In this document: in pieces, positions 29,017 to 45,322 of the stretch
Numbering within the stretch: the first letter of the stretch is position 1
Layout of the letters: each line of letters starts with the position of its first letter
From: a phage
Sequence record: PZ445498.1
Length of the DNA: 64,000 nt
Strand: one strand, 5' to 3'
The notes under the pieces: model-generated
Databases searched by the model: none
Told to the model about the DNA's origin: nothing
The model's input: only the letters and a program-made list of their open reading frames with translations
Made by a program: the position numbers and the translations under genes

Positions 29017-29199
29017 ATGCCAGTATCTAAAAACGTCCGTAAAAATGGTAAAGTAGCAAAACGTAACCTGGGTCTGCGTCGTATGGCTGAGCGTCAGTCC
29101 GGCATCCAGAAAATCTTTAATGTGCTGAATCGCGCCAACCCGAATATTGATAACAGTTCTGATACTGTTCTGCGCACTCTGCTGGCAATCGGTCTGTAA
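29017..29199 (+). CDS. hypothetical small basic protein
   Basis: 60 aa ORF after promoter 28948-28976. Confidence 0.45.
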   Translation: MPVSKNVRKNGKVAKRNLGLRRMAERQSGIQKIFNVLNRANPNIDNSSDTVLRTLLAIGL

Positions 29200-29251
29200 T
29201 AGACTGTTTTTTAAAACAAATTCAAATCTCAAACTTCATATAAGGAAGCAA

Positions 29252-29893
29252 ATGATGACTACTCGTATCTCTAAAACTCGTGCTCTGGCAACTATCAAGT
29301 CTCTGGAATCTAAAATCCGTAAAGCTACTGAACAACAGCTTTTGATTGCTGTTGGTGAAGGTAAAGACAAGAATCAAGTTGTCGTTGGTGCTGCAATCGA
29401 AGTAGATGCTCTGTCTACTCGTATTAAAACTGATTTCCAGTCTCTGCTGGATATGATGACCCAGCGTGATCAGCTGAAAGCAGCGCTGATCAAGAGCAAT
29501 GCTGAAACTGTTGTAGAGATCGGTTCCCGCTCTATGACTGTTGCGGAAGCAATCGAAGCTAAGCGTTCTATGGAACTCAAAGCTCAGTTGCTGGCTAACA
29601 TGCGTAAGCAGTTCCATGCTGCTACTGTTAAGTTTAACACTCAGAAGGCTCAGTTTGATGCCAAGTATGAGCGTTTGCAGGATACCATGGCTACCCGCGA
29701 CAAGAAGACTTCCGAGGATGAAGTTAAGATGCAGCTTAACCTGCTGGAACTCAAGAACACTCCATTCCTGATCGATCCGCTGGAGCTGGAAAAGCTGATC
29801 AAGCAACACGACGAAGAATACCAGGACTTTGCAACCAACGTTGACTTTGTTCTGTCTGAGTCCAACGCCTCTACTTTTATCGAAGTAGAGTAA
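29252..29893 (+). CDS. hypothetical coiled-coil protein
   Basis: Start ATG 29252 after TAAGGAAG RBS; highly expressed-type codon usage. Confidence 0.55.
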   Translation: MMTTRISKTRALATIKSLESKIRKATEQQLLIAVGEGKDKNQVVVGAAIEVDALSTRIKTDFQSLLDMMTQRDQLKAALIKSNAETVVEIGSRSMTVAEAIEAKRSMELKAQLLANMRKQFHAATVKFNTQKAQFDAKYERLQDTMATRDKKTSEDEVKMQLNLLELKNTPFLIDPLELEKLIKQHDEEYQDFATNVDFVLSESNASTFIEVE

Positions 29894-30273
29894 TAATTTA
29901 AAAGACTAGTAAATCGGTAGACGAAAGCCCAAGCATCTTACCTCGCAGCAGCGGTTGAAATACGAGGTTAAATAAGACCGCTGACCATACTATAAAGTAT
30001 AATCTATTGGAGATTATGTTTATTACACCAGCCTCTTAAGCTGAACTGTAAAAACGGTCGTTGGTAGTACCAACACAACTTCAAAGATCAACGCTCAAGT
30101 ATGAAAGCTGAAAAGTTAAAAGCACTCAAACTTCTAACCTTCTAAAGCTAAAAGATGCAAAGTATTCGTTGATGATTCAAACCCTAGATCAAAGGTACAT
30201 GGCTCATAAGATATGGCCTGTGGCGCCTCTAGGCTGTTTATCGGTTTACTAGTCTCTCAATTTAAAAATGTAT

Positions 30274-30302
30274 TTGCTAATTAGTTTAGTTTTCTATATA
30301 AT
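30274..30302 (+). promoter_or_regulatory. early promoter
   Basis: TTGCTA-17-TATAAT plus TAAATTGATGAGACGAGG leader. Confidence 0.7.
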
Positions 30303-30332
30303 ATATTTTTAAATTGATGAGACGAGGCTATT

Positions 30333-30650
30333 ATGATTTTTCATATTCTAATTGATGATGTTCGTGACCTACATGGGATGGATATTATCATTCGAACCCC
30401 CGAAGCCGCTATTGAGTTTCTGAATACAACCGATACCACCGGACATTTCGTTTATATGGATAACGATCTGGCTGTAGATGGTATGGAAGGTTATCAAATT
30501 CTTCGTTTACTCCTAAAATTTGGTCAGAGACCCAAGAAAGTGGTACTAGTAACCTCGAACCCAGTAGCTAAAGAGACCATGCGTAATGATCTCTTAGACG
30601 AAGGGTATCAAGAAAGCCCTAATCGTATTGAGTACGATTGGCCGGAGTAA
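30333..30650 (+). CDS. hypothetical protein
   Basis: 105 aa ORF after promoter 30274-30302. Confidence 0.5.
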   Translation: MIFHILIDDVRDLHGMDIIIRTPEAAIEFLNTTDTTGHFVYMDNDLAVDGMEGYQILRLLLKFGQRPKKVVLVTSNPVAKETMRNDLLDEGYQESPNRIEYDWPE

Positions 30651-30655
30651 ATAAA

Positions 30656-31105
30656 ATGAAGGCAGCTTTGCTTTTAATAGCTGCCCTAACCTATAGCTTC
30701 AATAGTCATGCGACCTACGACTCAAAGCAGATTGATTGCATTGCAAAAAATATCTACTTCGAAGCACGAGGTGAGGGCACTAAAGGAATGATCGCAGTTG
30801 CACAGGTTACTAAAAACCGTGTTAACTCTGGTACTTTTCCTGATTCTTACTGTAAAGTAGTATATCAGTCTAACCAGTTCTCTTGGGTGGCCAAGAGACC
30901 AAAAGTTGATAAAACCGATGAGGCTTGGCAAGTTGCTAAGAATTTAGCTAGAGTGATATACTACGTTGATTTACCACAAGATCCAACACATGGAGCGTTA
31001 TACTTCCATAGTGGTAAAGATAAACCGTACTGGACAAAGAAGTTTAAGAAAACAACGAAGATTCAAGGCCATACGTTTTACAAGCCTGTGGTTAAGAAAA
31101 CTTAA
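30656..31105 (+). CDS. secreted cell-wall hydrolase-like protein (SleB/Hydrolase_2-like)
   Basis: Signal peptide MKAALLLIAALTYSFNSHA; motif FEARGE...GMIAVAQVTKNR...QFSW typical of SleB-type hydrolases. Confidence 0.6.
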   Translation: MKAALLLIAALTYSFNSHATYDSKQIDCIAKNIYFEARGEGTKGMIAVAQVTKNRVNSGTFPDSYCKVVYQSNQFSWVAKRPKVDKTDEAWQVAKNLARVIYYVDLPQDPTHGALYFHSGKDKPYWTKKFKKTTKIQGHTFYKPVVKKT

Positions 31106-31114
31106 AAAATTCGA

Positions 31115-31143
31115 TTGCTTAAAGCCTTAAATTTCTGTATAAT
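31115..31143 (+). promoter_or_regulatory. early promoter
   Basis: TTGCTT-17-TATAAT plus TATAAATTGATGAGAGGAAAG leader. Confidence 0.75.
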
Positions 31144-31175
31144 AACTGTATAAATTGATGAGAGGAAAGCGAACA

Positions 31176-31346
31176 ATGAAAACCTTAGTAATTATTGGTG
31201 TTAACACTCACGGTATTCGTACTACGAAAACAGTTAAAACTACTAACGTTGCTGAAATTACTACAAATCCTAAGAAGTTTGATTTCGCCAAAGTCTCAGC
31301 AGTTATGACAGAACAATCTTTTAACCAAGCACTGGGAATTAAATAA
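31176..31346 (+). CDS. hypothetical small protein
   Basis: 56 aa from ATG 31176 after GAGAGGA RBS. Confidence 0.4.
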   Translation: MKTLVIIGVNTHGIRTTKTVKTTNVAEITTNPKKFDFAKVSAVMTEQSFNQALGIK

Positions 31347-31789
31347 TGGAAGAGAATATTCTAGATGTTTTGCGTAGGGCTTTGCAGGAATCCAAGTTTA
31401 ATGGTTCTGATAAAGAAGTAGCTAAAAGCTACCAGACCATAATCGGAGATCTTCAGCGTGTTGATAAAGACTTCATTACTTCTGAACAGTTTGTATCTTA
31501 TCTAAAAGCTCAACTGAAAAGCATTAATCAGACGAAAGCTAAACTTCACGGTCAAGACCTTGATAATTATAGCTTGCAGTCTGCTCAGTATGAATATATA
31601 CTGAACAAATGGTTACAGCAGTATCTGCCGCCTCAGTTATCTGATTCTGAGATTCGCAAATACTTTGCAGAATTAGTTAAGTTGAATCCTGGGATTACAA
31701 AAGGTATGCTGATGAAAGCGATTAAGGAAGAGTTTCCTGGTCGTTACGACGGTGGCATTGCTGCTCAGGTTGCTGGCGAATTTAATTAA
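31346..31789 (+). CDS. hypothetical protein
   Basis: 147 aa ORF. Confidence 0.5.
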   Translation: MEENILDVLRRALQESKFNGSDKEVAKSYQTIIGDLQRVDKDFITSEQFVSYLKAQLKSINQTKAKLHGQDLDNYSLQSAQYEYILNKWLQQYLPPQLSDSEIRKYFAELVKLNPGITKGMLMKAIKEEFPGRYDGGIAAQVAGEFN

Positions 31790-31797
31790 AAATTGAT

Positions 31798-31826
31798 TTG
31801 CTAAACGCCTCAAAATTCTGTATAAT
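31798..31826 (+). promoter_or_regulatory. early promoter with no ORF downstream
   Basis: TTGCTA-17-TATAAT plus TCATAAATTAGAGAACAG leader, but no RBS/ATG; drives the ORF-free 1 kb segment. Confidence 0.7.
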
Positions 31827-31832
31827 AGATTC

Positions 31833-32854
31833 ATAAATTAGAGAACAGCGAGCCGATTACGCTGAGTGAGTTTAGTGATTCCTACTAGGATAGCTATTCC
31901 ACTGAATAGAGTCGGTGAGTTTAGAATGATCACCTGTTAGAGTTCCGAGTCCAGTCCGGTATATCCGGCCAAGTGACTAGAGTAACGAATATAGGTTCGA
32001 GACTTCTTGTAAAACTCGGGAGCTGTCCCGAAACCTCGTAAACTCTTCTCTAATTTATACAAAACGATGGTTCTCAACATGAGCTAGGCACAGTGTGAAA
32101 TACGGTGCGTGTCCCAGAGGTAGAAGACTGAAGGTTGGGCTTGAGAAAACCATGTAACTTTCAACGCTGACCCGTCTAGGATGCAAGTCAAGACGTATGT
32201 ATACCACAATGCGGCGATTGTCCATCGAATAGTGGGGTGTCGAACCGACTTATGTGATAACACTGCCAGATGCTCACAGGCTGACATTGAGCTTCGCTGC
32301 TCCTTCTGGAAAGAATCGGATAACTCGGGCTTATACCGGATAAGCATTCGCTGCTGGAGTACATACTATGACGGTTCAGGAGGTACGCCGCCTGATCAGT
32401 ATTAGGTTAGAATCGAAACAGCTAAACCACGAAAGGACTGGGATGCTTGCTGAGCTACCCCTACCTGATACATGCCTCAGCTAACTTCGCATCGAAAATC
32501 GGAGGTGCGATTTAACCAGACCGCGTAACTATGAGAGTGGGAAATGGTAAACTGTATAGCTTGACTCTAACTTAGTTAGGTGGCTACAGAGCCTTAATGG
32601 GACAGTCTAGATACTTAGTGAACCGCGGATAACGCTAAGAATACTGTGAAAATACTATGGGAGTCATGACCCGGATGTTGCCCGATCGCTATAGTGGCGA
32701 ATAACCACGAAGTCACCTTGACTTAAACTGGAAGATATTGTTCGACGGAAGGGCTGAAGAGCTTAATCTGAGGGGGCTGACCCTACCTACCGCCGGGTAT
32801 CTTTAAGAGTTCTTACGAGAGTTCTTAAACATACCTAAACATTAAGGAATACTA
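31833..32854 (+). ncRNA. candidate large non-coding RNA (promoter-driven ORF-free segment)
   Basis: Consensus early promoter at 31798-31826 with no RBS or ORF for ~1 kb; stops in all frames; G+C higher than flanks. Confidence 0.3.
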
Positions 32855-43239: not shown

Positions 43240-43604
43240 TTGTTATAATATTTATATAAATTGATGTGAAAATAGCTGCCTAGATATCAGGTGTATGACG
43301 TCTACACTAGCAGAGCTACCGAAAAAGAGATCCTCAGGATAAACGCCGTAGCAAAATTAGTCTGATATCCATCAATTTAGTTCACTAAGGTATTAGCTCG
43401 ACCTAGGACTGGCTGCCAAAAAGCACAGTTGCAATTAGACCCCCTAATGGCGGGGGATGCTTTGCAATAAGTTCTAGATTAGTCCACTAGATTCAGCGGC
43501 TACTGAATAGTGTATTGGGTTTGCGAGATGACGCGGTTCCTTCCGCTCGAAGCGAAGGTGCTGTAGTTACGCCGAGCTAATAGCCTTAGTAAACTAAAGA
43601 ATTT

Positions 43605-43785: not shown

Positions 43786-44370
43786 ATGCAGTTTGTACCA
43801 ATAAAAGATGCACCAGGGTATTTAGTAAATGAAACAGGGGATGTGTTATCTACATTTACTAATAAAATTTTATCAAGATATATAGTTGATGGATACCCTG
43901 CTGTAAAATTACAGATAAATGGTAAGCAAACTTCGGTACTTATACACCGAATTATTTCCCATGTATTTGGGGACTTATATAATCTATTTGATCCTGAATT
44001 AGAAGTAGATCACAAGGATAGAGATAGGCTGAATCTATCTAAAGATAATCTTCAAGTTTTATCAAAAATAGAACATCAGAAGAAAACTAATAAAGATAAT
44101 GGATGGTCTGATAGTAGAGTACCTTGCCCCTTATGTGGAAATCTAATGCTTCAGAGATCAGTAACATGTACAAATTGTAAGCCAAAACCTACAGGAAAGT
44201 TAATAAAACCAGAATTGTCCTTAGAAGACATAACTGAAAAGGTTTTATTAATGGGGTGGGTTAAGGCAGCTAAAGATCTAGAAGTATCAGAGTCCACTTT
44301 ACGTAGACGATATACTAAACTAACCGGATTAAGCCCAAAAGTATTAACAGAACAACGGAAAAGCAAATAG
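43786..44370 (+). CDS. HNH homing endonuclease
   Basis: Paralog of 40353-40934 (ELEVDHKDRDRLN, Cys4 cluster); 3' end overlaps tRNA-Ser. Confidence 0.7.
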   Translation: MQFVPIKDAPGYLVNETGDVLSTFTNKILSRYIVDGYPAVKLQINGKQTSVLIHRIISHVFGDLYNLFDPELEVDHKDRDRLNLSKDNLQVLSKIEHQKKTNKDNGWSDSRVPCPLCGNLMLQRSVTCTNCKPKPTGKLIKPELSLEDITEKVLLMGWVKAAKDLEVSESTLRRRYTKLTGLSPKVLTEQRKSK

Positions 44371-44450
44371 ACTGGTGACTAAACCCGATTGGAAATCGGT
44401 TGAGGGGTAGCAATACCGCCTTATGGGTTCAACTCCCATCTTTTCCGCCA
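44357..44450 (+). tRNA. tRNA-Ser (anticodon GGA)
   Basis: Acceptor GGAAAAG/CTTTTCC, anticodon arm CCGA-TTGGAAA-TCGG, long variable arm, T arm ATGGG-TTCAACT-CCCAT, G73, CCA; overlaps HNH stop. Confidence 0.7.
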
Positions 44451-44462
44451 AACAATTTATAT

Positions 44463-44557
44463 GGTAGGTCAATCCAATGGCTGGCGCTGGACTCCGACTT
44501 GAAATCGGTTGATCGTAGTGATACGGTGTAAGGGTTCGATCCCCTTACCTACCTCCA
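44463..44557 (+). tRNA. tRNA-Ser (anticodon TGA)
   Basis: Acceptor GGTAGGT/ACCTACC, anticodon arm CCGA-CTTGAAA-TCGG, long variable arm, T arm AAGGG-TTCGATC-CCCTT, CCA. Confidence 0.7.
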
Positions 44558-44938
44558 AATCTTGAAGTATGCCGGAATCGGTAGACGGGGCTTCCTAAAG
44601 GGCGTAAGGGGAACATCCACTCCTCATAAGATACCCGAAAATGAGGCTGAGATAAATGGTCTATCTCATGAAGGTTCAAGTCCTTCTGCTTCTTGATACA
44701 TTAATGGCTCAAAGTGTAACGGTGCTATTTGATGTTCTTAGTAAGACTTTCCCGACATGCGTTCGGGAGTAAGCTGCTAAGGCTAGAGTAGAAGAGTTTC
44801 GGAGAGCCGCCACAATTGAGTATTATTAGAGAGCATTCGCAAGAAAGAATCAGGAGAAAAACCTGTGCGCAGAATGACTAACTTTGGTACCTTAGACGGC
44901 CAAATGGAGGACTGATCATCCCCTAATAGTATTCAATT

Positions 44939-45015
44939 GTGGCTATATCATAATTGGTTAATGATCCTGATTGTGAATCAGGCCTATGTGGATTCGAATT
45001 CTACTAGCCACCCCC
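44939..45015 (+). tRNA. tRNA-His (anticodon GTG)
   Basis: Acceptor GTGGCTA/TAGCCAC, D stem TCAT/ATGA, anticodon arm CCTGA-TTGTGAA-TCAGG, T arm GTGGA-TTCGAAT-TCTAC, C73; 3' tail reads CCCA. Confidence 0.8.
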
Positions 45016-45022
45016 AAATATA

Positions 45023-45097
45023 GCGTCCTTATTTCAACGGAAAGAATGTAAAGCTACGAACTTTACGATCGGGGTTCGATTCCCTGAGGATGCACCA
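45023..45097 (+). tRNA. tRNA-Arg (anticodon ACG)
   Basis: Acceptor GCGTCCT/AGGATGC, anticodon arm TAAAG-CTACGAA-CTTTA, T arm CGGGG-TTCGATT-CCCTG, A73, CCA. Confidence 0.8.
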
Positions 45098-45121
45098 ATT
45101 AACTTAAACAGGAAATAAAAT

Positions 45122-45322
45122 ATGGCTGATTTCTGCAAAGAATGCTCTATTGATATGTGGGGAAGAGATACTGGTGATCTTTCTGGTCTGATTACAGAAG
45201 CCGAAGTTAAAGAAGGCTATGGTGCTGTTGTAATCTGTGAAGGTTGTGGCATTATCCGTGTTGATCATAATGGTAAACGTCTAGAAGAACCTGATCCAAT
45301 CGCCACGGTTCCTGTAGAATAA
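45122..45322 (+). CDS. hypothetical small Zn-binding protein
   Basis: 66 aa with CKEC and CEGC Cys pairs. Confidence 0.5.
   Translation: MADFCKECSIDMWGRDTGDLSGLITEAEVKEGYGAVVICEGCGIIRVDHNGKRLEEPDPIATVPVE

What the first reader, a model, noticed from the sequence alone, without database searches (positions are those of the whole stretch)
44558..44938. 380 bp ORF-free stretch with a tRNA-like T arm but no acceptor or CCA
Between tRNA-Ser and tRNA-His there is no ORF. The segment has a string of hairpins (CCTCAT...ATGAGG, GAGATA-AATGGTC-TATCTC) and a canonical-looking T arm GAAGG-TTCAAGT-CCTTC (~44671-44687) that is not followed by CCA and has no matching 5' acceptor strand. It also carries the second copy of AATCGGTAGACG. 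It may be a tRNA remnant, a tRNA-like structural RNA, or part of a larger structured RNA.
Basis: seen in the sequence. Interest (0 to 1): 0.55.

Follow-up and report, generated by a model that had tools for sequence, protein, structure and literature searches.

The report
Three known T5-phage stable RNAs
The 380-bp "empty" stretch in this T5-like phage's tRNA cluster holds three small structured RNA genes already catalogued in phage T5 (a tRNA look-alike with an over-long anticodon arm, a rod-shaped RNA ending in CCA, and a hairpin-closed RNA); their function has never been worked out.

Summary
The window is a T5-like phage (Demerecviridae) and the finding lies in its tRNA array. T5 reference records AY543070 and AY692264 annotate three stable RNAs of unknown function at this spot: rna1 ("tRNA-like stable RNA"), rnaI and rnaIII. 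Window 44561-44705 is the RNA1 ortholog (80% identity). It is a full class II, tRNA-Leu-like cloverleaf whose anticodon arm is extended by about 41 nt. Covariation in 23 sequences supports it: 95.4% of cells paired, 13 pairs with compensatory changes. Window 44706-44812 is the RNAI ortholog (90.7%), a 107-nt rod ending GAGCC-G-CCA. Window 44817-44937 fills the RNAIII slot with an unrelated sequence that keeps the same 18-bp closing helix. This allele is in 55 GenBank phages and is annotated in none. At least six different interiors share that helix. RNA1 is not a decoding tRNA, a pseudogene, an intron-containing tRNA or a tmRNA. A viable T5 deletion removes all three genes. No Rfam family covers them. 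Function is still unknown. My best guess is that tRNA-processing enzymes excise them and that RNA1 acts as a tRNA mimic. Verdict: already known, moderately interesting.

The parts
44462..44557 (+). Left flank: tRNA-Ser(UGA), class II, with encoded CCA. It corresponds to T5 tRNAS1.
   Evidence: Missed by default ARAGORN and by Rfam at gathering threshold. Found as a 37.6-bit tRNA-clan hit and counted as Ser(tga) by ARAGORN at -ps80. T5 annotates tRNAS1(UGA) in the same position.
44561..44705 (+). RNA1 ortholog: a tRNA-like stable RNA. Ends are set by analogy with T5 rna1. The cloverleaf core is 44563-44694.
   Evidence: 80% identity to T5 rna1 over 145 nt. T5 annotation. Covariation.
44563..44569 (+). 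RNA1 acceptor stem, 5' strand. It pairs with 44687-44693. Position 1:72 is U.U, followed by 6 bp.
   Evidence: helix 1: four pairs with double changes. U.U at 1:72 in 22 of 23 sequences. The Klebsiella version GAUGCCG/CGGGGUU pairs at 6 of 7 positions with different bases.
44572..44588 (+). RNA1 D arm: 3-bp stem CCG/CGG and loop GAAUCGGUAGA, of tRNA-Leu type. U8 is at 44570.
   Evidence: Invariant in 23 sequences. Best local match is the phage's tRNA-Leu(tag) D region, 16 of 19 positions. The RNA1 model's best non-self hit in the window is tRNA-Leu(tag) at 42.4 bits.
44590..44647 (+). RNA1 extended anticodon arm, three helices: 44590-94/44643-47, 44600-03/44633-36 and 44607-12/44621-26. The invariant 8-nt apical loop ACAUCCAC is at 44613-44620. 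There is no 7-nt anticodon loop.
   Evidence: helices 3-5: 8 pairs with double changes. The apical loop is invariant in Salmonella, Escherichia, Klebsiella and Pectobacterium phages, apart from one T5 record with A to G.
44649..44667 (+). RNA1 long variable arm: 6-bp stem and invariant loop AAUGGUC.
   Evidence: helix 6: 100% paired, one pair with double changes (A-U, U-A, C-G).
44670..44686 (+). RNA1 T arm GAAGG-UUCAAGU-CCUUC.
   Evidence: helix 7: 100% paired.
44706..44812 (+). RNAI ortholog: a 107-nt rod-like RNA. The terminal stem GGCUC/GAGCC is followed by an unpaired G-CCA.
   Evidence: 90.7% identity to T5 rnaI over all 107 nt. T5 annotation. Folds. 95.8% of cells paired against 34-50% when slid, but covariation is not significant. 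The Pectobacterium terminal stem GGGCC/GGCUC is compensatory.
44817..44937 (+). Slot-3 RNA ('type C'). It occupies the position of T5 RNAIII, with an unrelated interior of three hairpins. Ends are predicted by analogy with T5 RNAIII.
   Evidence: T5 RNAIII gives no BLAST match in the window. The architecture is the same as T5 RNAIII. Fold z-score is -3.6. Present in 55 GenBank records at 95% identity or more, annotated in none.
44812..44829 (+). Slot-3 closing helix, 5' strand. It pairs with 44923-44940: 18 bp including 2 G.U pairs. The outer pairs use the end of RNAI's CCA and the first bases of tRNA-His.
   Evidence: The same helix closes six different interiors, with compensatory changes (CAAUUG to CAAGUG/CACUUG in Pectobacterium, to CAAUUA/UAAUUG in L312).
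44939..45014 (+). Right flank: tRNA-His(GUG).
   Evidence: 56.5 bits.

Best explanation
The stretch holds three consecutive genes for small non-coding RNAs on the tRNA-coding strand of a T5-like phage. They are the counterparts of T5 RNA1, RNAI and RNAIII.

Identity (shown). RNA1 (44561-44705) derives from a class II, tRNA-Leu-like gene. It keeps the features that build the tRNA L-shape: acceptor stem, U8, a D loop with GG, a long variable arm and a UUCAAGU T loop. Its anticodon loop is replaced by a ~48-nt two-helix extension capped by an invariant ACAUCCAC loop. It has a U.U mismatch at position 1:72 and no encoded CCA. It therefore cannot decode and is unlikely to be charged. RNAI (44706-44812) is a rod-like hairpin with a tRNA-style terminal stem plus G-CCA. 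The third RNA (44817-44937) is three hairpins closed by an 18-bp helix that bridges the 3' end of RNAI and the 5' end of tRNA-His.

Processing (inferred). All three are made as part of the polycistronic tRNA precursor and cut out by host tRNA-processing enzymes. RNase P would cut at the 5' ends of RNA1, RNAI and tRNA-His. An RNase III-type staggered cut in the long helix would release the third RNA. The annotated T5 RNAIII ends leave exactly a 2-nt 3' overhang on that helix.

Function (inferred, roughly 30-35% each). RNA1 may be an uncharged tRNA mimic that binds a protein through its two invariant loops, for example a host tRNA-binding or tRNA-targeting factor. The slot-3 helix may mainly be a processing element whose interior is free to vary, so that 'RNAIII' is a stable by-product.

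The RNAs are accessory: T5 grows without them in the laboratory.
For: Identity: T5 records annotate rna1, rnaI and rnaIII as stable RNAs between tRNA-Ser1 and tRNA-His. The window matches rna1 at 80% and rnaI at 90.7% over full length, in the same order and on the same strand.

RNA1 structure: ARAGORN with introns allowed gives a cloverleaf. RNAalifold finds 40 pairs, 8 of them compensatory. The explicit class II model on 23 distinct sequences gives 95.4% of cells paired against 40-50% when slid, and 13 pairs with double changes against 1-3, with 0 of 500 shuffles as high. The Klebsiella homolog has a wholly different but still pairing acceptor stem.

tRNA-Leu origin.

Not a decoder: no 7-nt loop, and the residues flanking the anticodon stem differ between relatives. 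There is no RF00005 hit at E up to 10.

RNAI: G-CCA end and rod fold. The termini are conserved across two interior types, and the Pectobacterium terminal stem is compensatory.

Slot 3: closing helices of 17-19 bp around unrelated interiors, with G.U pairs that work only on the + strand RNA. The interior ranges from a ~32-nt plain hairpin to a junction of three hairpins.

Annotated T5 RNAIII ends and the 2-nt overhang: derived.

Dispensability: the viable T5-123 deletion, 29191-32442, spans 30284-30644 (PMC11464382).

Distribution: RNA1 is found only in T5-like phages.
Against: There are no expression data for this phage. 'Stable RNA' rests on the T5 annotation, and I could not read the primary papers. 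RNAI is 97% identical among the type-1 sequences, so its fold has no significant covariation. The third RNA has no sequence similarity to T5 RNAIII, so homology is only positional and structural. The RNase P and RNase III steps are inferred from ends and shapes and were not tested. The annotated T5 RNA1 starts 2 nt before position 1 of the acceptor stem and runs to the 5' end of RNAI, which fits poorly with clean tRNA-type trimming. The decoy idea has no direct support, and no binding partner is known. Only module C folds clearly better than shuffled sequence (z -3.6). RNA1 and RNAI alone give z -1.4 and -0.8.
Confidence: 0.85

Rival explanations
1. RNA1 is only a tRNA-shaped 'punctuation mark'. 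Its sole role would be to recruit RNase P and 3' processing enzymes so that neighbouring RNAs are released from the long precursor, as with mitochondrial tRNA punctuation or the mascRNA at the MALAT1 3' end. The stable RNA itself would do nothing.
For: RNA1 keeps the acceptor stem and T arm, which are the RNase P recognition module. Its annotated 3' end in T5 abuts the 5' end of RNAI. It sits inside a dense tRNA array. It is dispensable.
Against: Punctuation does not explain three things: the invariant ACAUCCAC apical loop and AAUGGUC variable loop across three host genera; the covarying ~48-nt extension; or RNA1 surviving alone, without RNAI or tRNA-His, in Klebsiella phages at ~90% core identity. 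RNAI also has its own tRNA-like end.
Confidence: 0.25
2. RNA1 is a decaying tRNA-Leu pseudogene that picked up an insertion.
For: Its body is most like tRNA-Leu. It lacks an anticodon loop and CCA, and has a U.U mismatch at 1:72. Standard tRNA finders reject it.
Against: There are 13 compensatory pair changes, including inside the 'insertion'. The loops are invariant. The core is ~90% identical where the flanks are unalignable. It is present in 500 or more phage records. T5 annotates it as a stable RNA.
Confidence: 0.03
3. RNA1 is a real tRNA gene interrupted by an intron in the anticodon loop, spliced to give tRNA-Leu(UAA) or tRNA-Phe. One GenBank record and ARAGORN with the -i option imply this.
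For: ARAGORN -i calls tRNA-Phe(aaa) with a 41-nt intron. Phage JLBYU40 annotates the homolog as a 134-nt tRNA-Leu(taa).
Against: Bacterial and phage tRNA introns are self-splicing group I introns of roughly 200 nt or more. This insert is 41 nt and gives no Intron_gpI hit at E up to 10. The implied anticodon changes with the phage and the tool. There is no CCA, the discriminator is U, and 1:72 is mismatched. T5 lists the unspliced 144-nt form as the stable species.
Confidence: 0.03
4. The slot-3 RNAs, and perhaps the alternative RNAI interiors, are interchangeable functional 'cargo' RNAs: an RNA version of a phage accessory or anti-defence gene island. Each interior type would target a different host factor, and the shared helix would be only the delivery frame.
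For: At least six unrelated interiors sit in one frame, and RNAI has two interiors. Each type is nearly invariant: T5-type at 97-100% and type C at 95% or more in 55 records. T5 tRNA-region genes are known to counter tRNA-targeting defences (PMC11464382). HNH homing endonuclease genes nearby could drive cassette exchange.
Against: One variant is a bare ~32-nt hairpin with no cargo, so the frame alone is enough in some phages. High identity within a type may reflect recent spread rather than selection. No target is known. The RNAs are dispensable in the laboratory.
Confidence: 0.15
5. The region is a tmRNA or another already catalogued structured RNA.
For: ARAGORN at an 80% threshold reports 'tmRNA' candidates overlapping the region.
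Against: Default ARAGORN finds none. Rfam 15 gives no hit in 44558-44938 even at E up to 10, apart from a chance snoRNA match at E = 0.14.
Confidence: 0.01

Closest known systems
Phage T5 stable RNAs RNA1, RNAI and RNAIII (GenBank AY543070 / AY692264 misc_RNA features rna1, rnaI, rnaIII)
   Same: Same genomic slot (tRNA-Ser ... tRNA-His), same strand and same order. RNA1 is 80% and RNAI 90.7% identical over full length. The cloverleaf with an extended arm and the G-CCA-ended rod are the same. The third RNA has the same closing helix and the same layout of three hairpins.
   Different: The third RNA's interior is unrelated in sequence to T5 RNAIII and is about 15 nt longer. The small ORF T5.063 that separates tRNA-Ser1 from rna1 in T5 is absent here; only 3 nt separate them.
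Phage T4 'species 1' and 'species 2' stable RNAs (rnaC 139 nt, rnaD 119 nt, NC_000866)
   Same: They are also a pair of dispensable-looking stable RNAs of unknown function inside a phage tRNA cluster. One has a canonical T arm, an imperfect acceptor-like stem and two long hairpins. The other is rod-like and ends in CACCA.
   Different: There is no detectable sequence or model similarity; the RNA1 model gives no hit in the T4 locus. T4 species 1 has no D arm. The order is reversed: in T4 the CCA-ended RNA comes first. This is an analogy, and homology is not shown.
Class II tRNA-Leu
   Same: 3-bp D stem with a GAAUYGGUAGA loop, a long variable arm, a UUCAAGU T loop and U8. The best model hit in the window is tRNA-Leu(tag).
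   Different: No 7-nt anticodon loop, about 41 extra nt, U.U at 1:72, a U rather than A discriminator, no CCA, and no RF00005 hit.
Bacterial Y RNA-like tRNA mimics (YrlA), from my own knowledge of the family
   Same: A non-decoding RNA that copies the tRNA elbow and is joined to an extra long helix. It is thought to act by binding proteins.
   Different: In YrlA the 5' and 3' ends form the protein-binding stem and the tRNA-like part is internal. Here the ends form the acceptor stem. No Rfam hit was found at E up to 10.

Membership tests
T5 RNA1 (tRNA-like stable RNA, AY543070 rna1) | Sequence homology to T5 rna1 over its full length | tested here: met
   80% identity over 145 nt, E = 1e-30.
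T5 RNA1 (tRNA-like stable RNA, AY543070 rna1) | Position downstream of tRNA-Ser(UGA) and upstream of RNAI and tRNA-His, on the tRNA strand | tested here: met
T5 RNA1 (tRNA-like stable RNA, AY543070 rna1) | Shared secondary structure: cloverleaf with an extended anticodon arm | tested here: met
   95.4% of cells paired and 13 compensatory pairs on 23 sequences that include T5.
T5 RNA1 (tRNA-like stable RNA, AY543070 rna1) | Accumulates as a stable ~144-nt RNA in infected cells | not testable with these tools
   Known only from the T5 record's annotation.
T5 RNAI (AY543070 rnaI) | Sequence homology over the 107-nt RNA, including the 5' GGCUC and the 3' GAGCC-GCCA | tested here: met
   90.7% identity over positions 1-107; alignment A5.
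T5 RNAI (AY543070 rnaI) | Conserved rod-like fold | tested here: inconclusive
   95.8% paired against 34-50% when slid, but only one double change and 169 of 500 shuffles as good. The compensatory terminal stem in Pectobacterium supports it.
T5 RNAIII (AY543070 rnaIII) | Sequence homology to T5 rnaIII | tested here: not met
   T5 RNAIII hits 25 other loci at 97-100% identity but not the window or phage bux. Module C hits only its own 55-record group.
T5 RNAIII (AY543070 rnaIII) | Position between the RNAI CCA end and tRNA-His, a closing helix of about 18 bp, and three internal hairpins | tested here: met
   The outer helix sequence CACAAUUGA/UCAAUUGUG is shared.
Canonical tRNA (Rfam RF00005) | Acceptor stem, D arm and T arm | tested here: met
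Canonical tRNA (Rfam RF00005) | 5-bp anticodon stem closed by a 7-nt loop with a conserved anticodon | tested here: not met
   48 nt lie between the anticodon-stem strands, and no candidate anticodon is conserved.
Canonical tRNA (Rfam RF00005) | Score at or above the family threshold in the covariance model | tested here: not met
   No RF00005 hit in 44558-44700 even at E up to 10. Default ARAGORN is negative.
Canonical tRNA (Rfam RF00005) | 3' CCA, encoded or added, and aminoacylation | not testable with these tools
   CCA is not encoded; UUGAUA follows the acceptor stem. Addition and charging need experiments.
tRNA gene with a group I intron | Self-splicing intron of roughly 200 nt or more with the group I core, inserted in the anticodon loop | tested here: not met
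   The insert is 41 nt, and there is no Intron_gpI hit at E up to 10.
tmRNA | tRNA-Ala-like domain, a resume codon with a tag reading frame, and detection by ARAGORN or Rfam | tested here: not met
   None found at default settings. There are only relaxed-threshold artefacts that overlap real tRNAs.
T4 species 1 / species 2 RNAs | Sequence or model homology | tested here: not met
   The RNA1 model gives no hit in the T4 locus L259. Only the architecture is similar.

The most novel reading that the evidence does not exclude
The interval between RNA1 and tRNA-His in T5-like phages may be a hypervariable island of RNA cassettes. A constant frame, made of the RNAI termini and a ~18-bp helix that is probably cut by RNase III, would carry alternative, individually conserved structured RNAs (at least six slot-3 interiors, two RNAI interiors and an optional fourth RNA). 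Together with the tRNA mimic RNA1, these would act as decoys or inhibitors against host RNA- or tRNA-directed immunity, as an RNA counterpart of protein anti-defence islands.
Probability: 0.12. Interest if true: 0.75.

Novelty: already known. Interest (0 to 1): 0.38.

Why it matters
T5-like phages are widely used in phage therapy and biocontrol work, and their tRNA region has recently been shown to counter tRNA-cleaving host defences (PARIS, retron Eco7). The three stable RNAs in that region are recorded in the T5 reference annotations, but none of the modern genome annotations I inspected mark them; one mislabels RNA1 as 'tRNA-Leu' and several call 'hypothetical proteins' over them. They have no Rfam family and no known function. 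This analysis gives a covariation-supported structure for RNA1. It shows that RNA1 is under strong selection across several genera of T5-like phages. It also shows that the neighbouring slots hold interchangeable RNA cassettes inside a conserved helix. Together these make the old question 'what are the T5 stable RNAs for?' directly testable. For the scan itself, the result is that this finding is an already catalogued feature, not a new class.

Tried and rejected
1. Rfam at gathering threshold over the whole window, and at E up to 10 over 44340-45110. Nothing was found in the finding apart from a chance snoRNA match.

2. ARAGORN at default settings (negative), with introns allowed (a cloverleaf with a 41-nt insert), and at a relaxed threshold (spurious tmRNA and tRNA-Ser(cga) calls, rejected).

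3. Protein coding. Only ORFs of 44 aa or fewer are present. I looked at a short ORF after the SD-like AGGAGA in the slot-3 RNAs, but it is not shared by all variants.

4. The repeated 12-mer AATCGGTAGACG as a sign of a second tRNA-like gene at 29912. Rejected as a chance repeat with no tRNA context.

5. Relatives do not conserve it.

6. Viral-contig scans with the T-arm 17-mer and the apical-loop 14-mer. Both were too unspecific and returned mostly unrelated contigs.

7. Bacterial genome scan for the RNA1 core. The 19 hits match chance expectation (about 16, my calculation), and the RNA1 model confirmed none of them.

8. Metagenome scan. It returned only close T5-like relatives and added no diversity.

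9. RNA1 model search for distant homologs in about 0.9 Mb of viral loci. It found only ordinary class II tRNAs.

10. Promoter and terminator scan. Counts were not above those in shuffled sequence, and the one '+' strand terminator in the region is simply the T arm.

11. Literature. No open-access paper describing the T5 stable RNAs was found. The Glukhov 2018 deletion paper is not held.

12. Kissing-loop or target complementarity for the invariant loops, checked by eye only. I found nothing longer than 3-6 nt and did not pursue it.

Full report
**Context.** BLAST of the region against GenBank phages shows that the window comes from a T5-like phage (Demerecviridae, close to Salmonella phages bux and KKP_3822). 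The finding lies inside the phage's tRNA array, where ARAGORN finds 26 tRNAs between 33.3 and 46.6 kb. The left neighbour, tRNA-Ser(UGA) at 44462-44557, is real. Default ARAGORN and Rfam at its gathering threshold both miss it.

**What the stretch is.** The T5 reference records AY543070 and AY692264 annotate three misc_RNA genes between tRNA-Ser1(UGA) and tRNA-His, on the tRNA strand:
- rna1, 144 nt, "tRNA-like stable RNA with unknown functions"
- rnaI, 107 nt, "stable RNA with unknown functions"
- rnaIII, 106 nt, abutting tRNA-His

Local BLAST with these T5 sequences places RNA1 at window 44561-44705 (80% identity) and RNAI at 44706-44812 (90.7% over all 107 nt). T5 RNAIII has no match in the window. 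Folding the whole 381 nt gives three independently closed domains with the same boundaries. The finding is therefore three adjacent small RNA genes. It is not one element, and it is not junk.

**RNA1.** With introns allowed, ARAGORN draws a complete cloverleaf at 44563-44694: acceptor stem, D arm, anticodon stem, long variable arm and T arm, with 41 extra nt in the anticodon loop. I aligned 23 distinct homologs, including a Klebsiella phage and a Pectobacterium phage from another subfamily. I then scored an explicit class II cloverleaf whose anticodon arm is extended by two further helices.
- 95.4% of cells form standard pairs, against 40-50% when the 3' partners are slid by 1-3 columns.
- 13 of 36 pairs show compensatory double changes, against 1-3 in the slid controls.
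- No shuffle out of 500 reaches the observed covariation.

It covaries: it is GGAAUA/UGUUCC in T5, and an entirely different GAUGCCG/CGGGGUU in Klebsiella phages. The 1:72 position is a U.U mismatch in 22 of 23 sequences.

The D loop (GAAUCGGUAGA), the variable-arm loop (AAUGGUC), the T loop (UUCAAGU) and the 8-nt apical loop of the extension (ACAUCCAC, 44613-44620) are essentially invariant. The body is most like tRNA-Leu.

There is no 7-nt anticodon loop. The residues next to the anticodon stem differ between relatives. No CCA is encoded, and the base after the stem is U. Rfam's tRNA model does not hit it even at E up to 10. RNA1 is therefore a selected, non-decoding tRNA mimic. It is not a pseudogene and not an intron-containing tRNA; the 134-nt "tRNA-Leu(taa)" annotated in phage JLBYU40 is this RNA.

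A model-based search found RNA1 only in T5-like phages. The bacterial-genome scan gave hits at chance level only.

**RNAI.** This RNA is a 107-nt rod closed by GGCUC/GAGCC and followed by an unpaired G-CCA, like a tRNA 3' end. The type-1 sequences are 97% identical. The fold is consistent with them (95.8% paired against 34-50% when slid), but covariation has no statistical power. Cross-lineage evidence helps. A second interior type of 100 nt (STWB21, L238, Pectobacterium) keeps the same first and last ~20 nt. The Pectobacterium terminal stem GGGCC/GGCUC pairs with different bases.

**Slot 3.** In the window, an unrelated ~121-nt sequence replaces T5-type RNAIII. It folds the same way as RNAIII: an 18-bp closing helix (44812-44829 with 44923-44940, including two G.U pairs) around three hairpins. 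The fold z-score is -3.6, against -4.7 for T5 RNAIII. This "type C" allele is found in 55 GenBank phage records at 95% identity or more, and none of them annotates it. T5-type RNAIII is 97-100% identical in most other relatives.

Across the loci I collected, at least six different interiors occupy the slot, ranging from a bare ~32-nt hairpin to elaborate multi-hairpin folds. All of them sit inside the same helix, CACAAUU(G/A)A.../...U(C/U)AAUUGUG, with compensatory changes. The G.U pairs mean that selection acts on the + strand RNA. When the annotated T5 RNAIII ends are placed on this helix, they leave a 2-nt 3' overhang, which is the signature of an RNase III cut. This is my inference.

**Mechanism.**
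- Shown: the identity, the boundaries by homology, the RNA1 fold and the conserved closing helix.
- Inferred: co-transcription with the tRNAs, and excision by RNase P (5' ends of RNA1, RNAI and tRNA-His) and by RNase III (slot-3 helix).
- Speculative: RNA1 as a protein-binding tRNA decoy acting through its invariant loops, and the slot-3 RNA as mainly a processing hairpin with a free-to-vary interior.

The viable T5 deletion mutant T5-123 lacks 29191-32442. That interval spans rna1, rnaI and rnaIII, so all three are accessory (PMC11464382). The same paper shows that T5 tRNA-region genes counter a tRNA-cleaving defence system, which makes an anti-defence role conceivable but does not prove it.

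**Comparison with known systems.** The closest known are the T5 RNAs themselves. Membership is met for RNA1 and RNAI. For RNAIII the link is positional and structural only. The T4 tRNA cluster holds an analogous pair: species 1 RNA has a T arm, an imperfect acceptor-like stem and two long hairpins, and species 2 RNA is rod-like and ends in CACCA. There is no detectable homology between the T4 and T5 RNAs. No Rfam family covers any of these RNAs.

**Verdict.** It is partly wrong: the acceptor stem exists, one hairpin is not conserved, and the 12-mer repeat is chance. The feature is real but already catalogued. The new points are the covariation-backed RNA1 structure, the unannotated type C allele, and the cassette-like variability of the locus. 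Interest is moderate (0.38).

Noticed in passing
window 44462-44557: tRNA-Ser(UGA) is a genuine class II tRNA with encoded CCA, but default ARAGORN and Rfam at gathering threshold both miss it. It scores only 37.6 bits against the tRNA-Sec model. Automatic annotation of these phages will under-count tRNAs.
   Followed up: partly
window 43391-43585: This is a homolog of a fourth T5 stable RNA, rna2H (172 nt in T5, 'stable RNA with unknown functions'). It is 83.6% identical and aligns over 195 nt here, about 23 nt longer than in T5. It lies just upstream of tRNA-Ala.
   Followed up: no
L001 (phage bux) 1860-1973; also L258 (STWB21) and L238: An extra ~110-nt ORF-free insert lies between RNA1 and RNAI in some relatives. 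It has a GUGC...GCAC hairpin, a conserved TATAAACTATATGA motif and further hairpins. It could be a fourth small RNA or an internal promoter. It is absent from the window.
   Followed up: no
L258 1462-1561, L238, L257: RNAI exists in a second form of 100 nt. It has the same terminal ~20 nt at each end but an unrelated interior, so recombination breakpoints lie inside the RNA gene.
   Followed up: partly
L312 and L314, upstream of tRNA-His: In some T5-like phages the slot-3 RNA is a bare ~32-nt hairpin (L312) or a ~68-nt element (L314), inside the same closing helix. The helix, not the interior, is the constant part.
   Followed up: partly
window 43786-44370: The HNH homing endonuclease ORF (194 aa, ortholog of T5 F-TflI/hegC) overlaps the first 14 nt of tRNA-Ser(GGA), which starts at 44357. 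Such endonucleases could drive the mosaic exchange seen in the neighbouring RNA slots.
   Followed up: no
window 29894-30332: A ~440-bp stretch without ORFs of 40 aa or more holds the other copy of AATCGGTAGACG. It has no tRNA-like features and was not examined further.
   Followed up: no
window 45122-45322: A 66-aa ORF with two CxxC pairs (MADFCKEC...CEGCG), probably a zinc ribbon, lies right after tRNA-Arg. It is conserved in T5 (T5.062), and the T5 record notes similarity to Felix O1 p023/p024. Function unknown.
   Followed up: no
L093 349-529, L047 5036-5210, L028 12243-12439, L014 2419-2608: The RNA1 model gives weak full-length hits of 175-197 nt in unrelated viral contigs. These could be class II tRNAs carrying insertions or introns. 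Not examined.
   Followed up: no
L125/L243 (T5 AY543070) versus L003 (T5 AY587007), RNA1 apical loop: The two T5 reference sequences differ at one base inside the otherwise invariant RNA1 apical loop (CAUCCGCUCC versus CAUCCACUCC). This is either a strain difference or a sequencing error.
   Followed up: no
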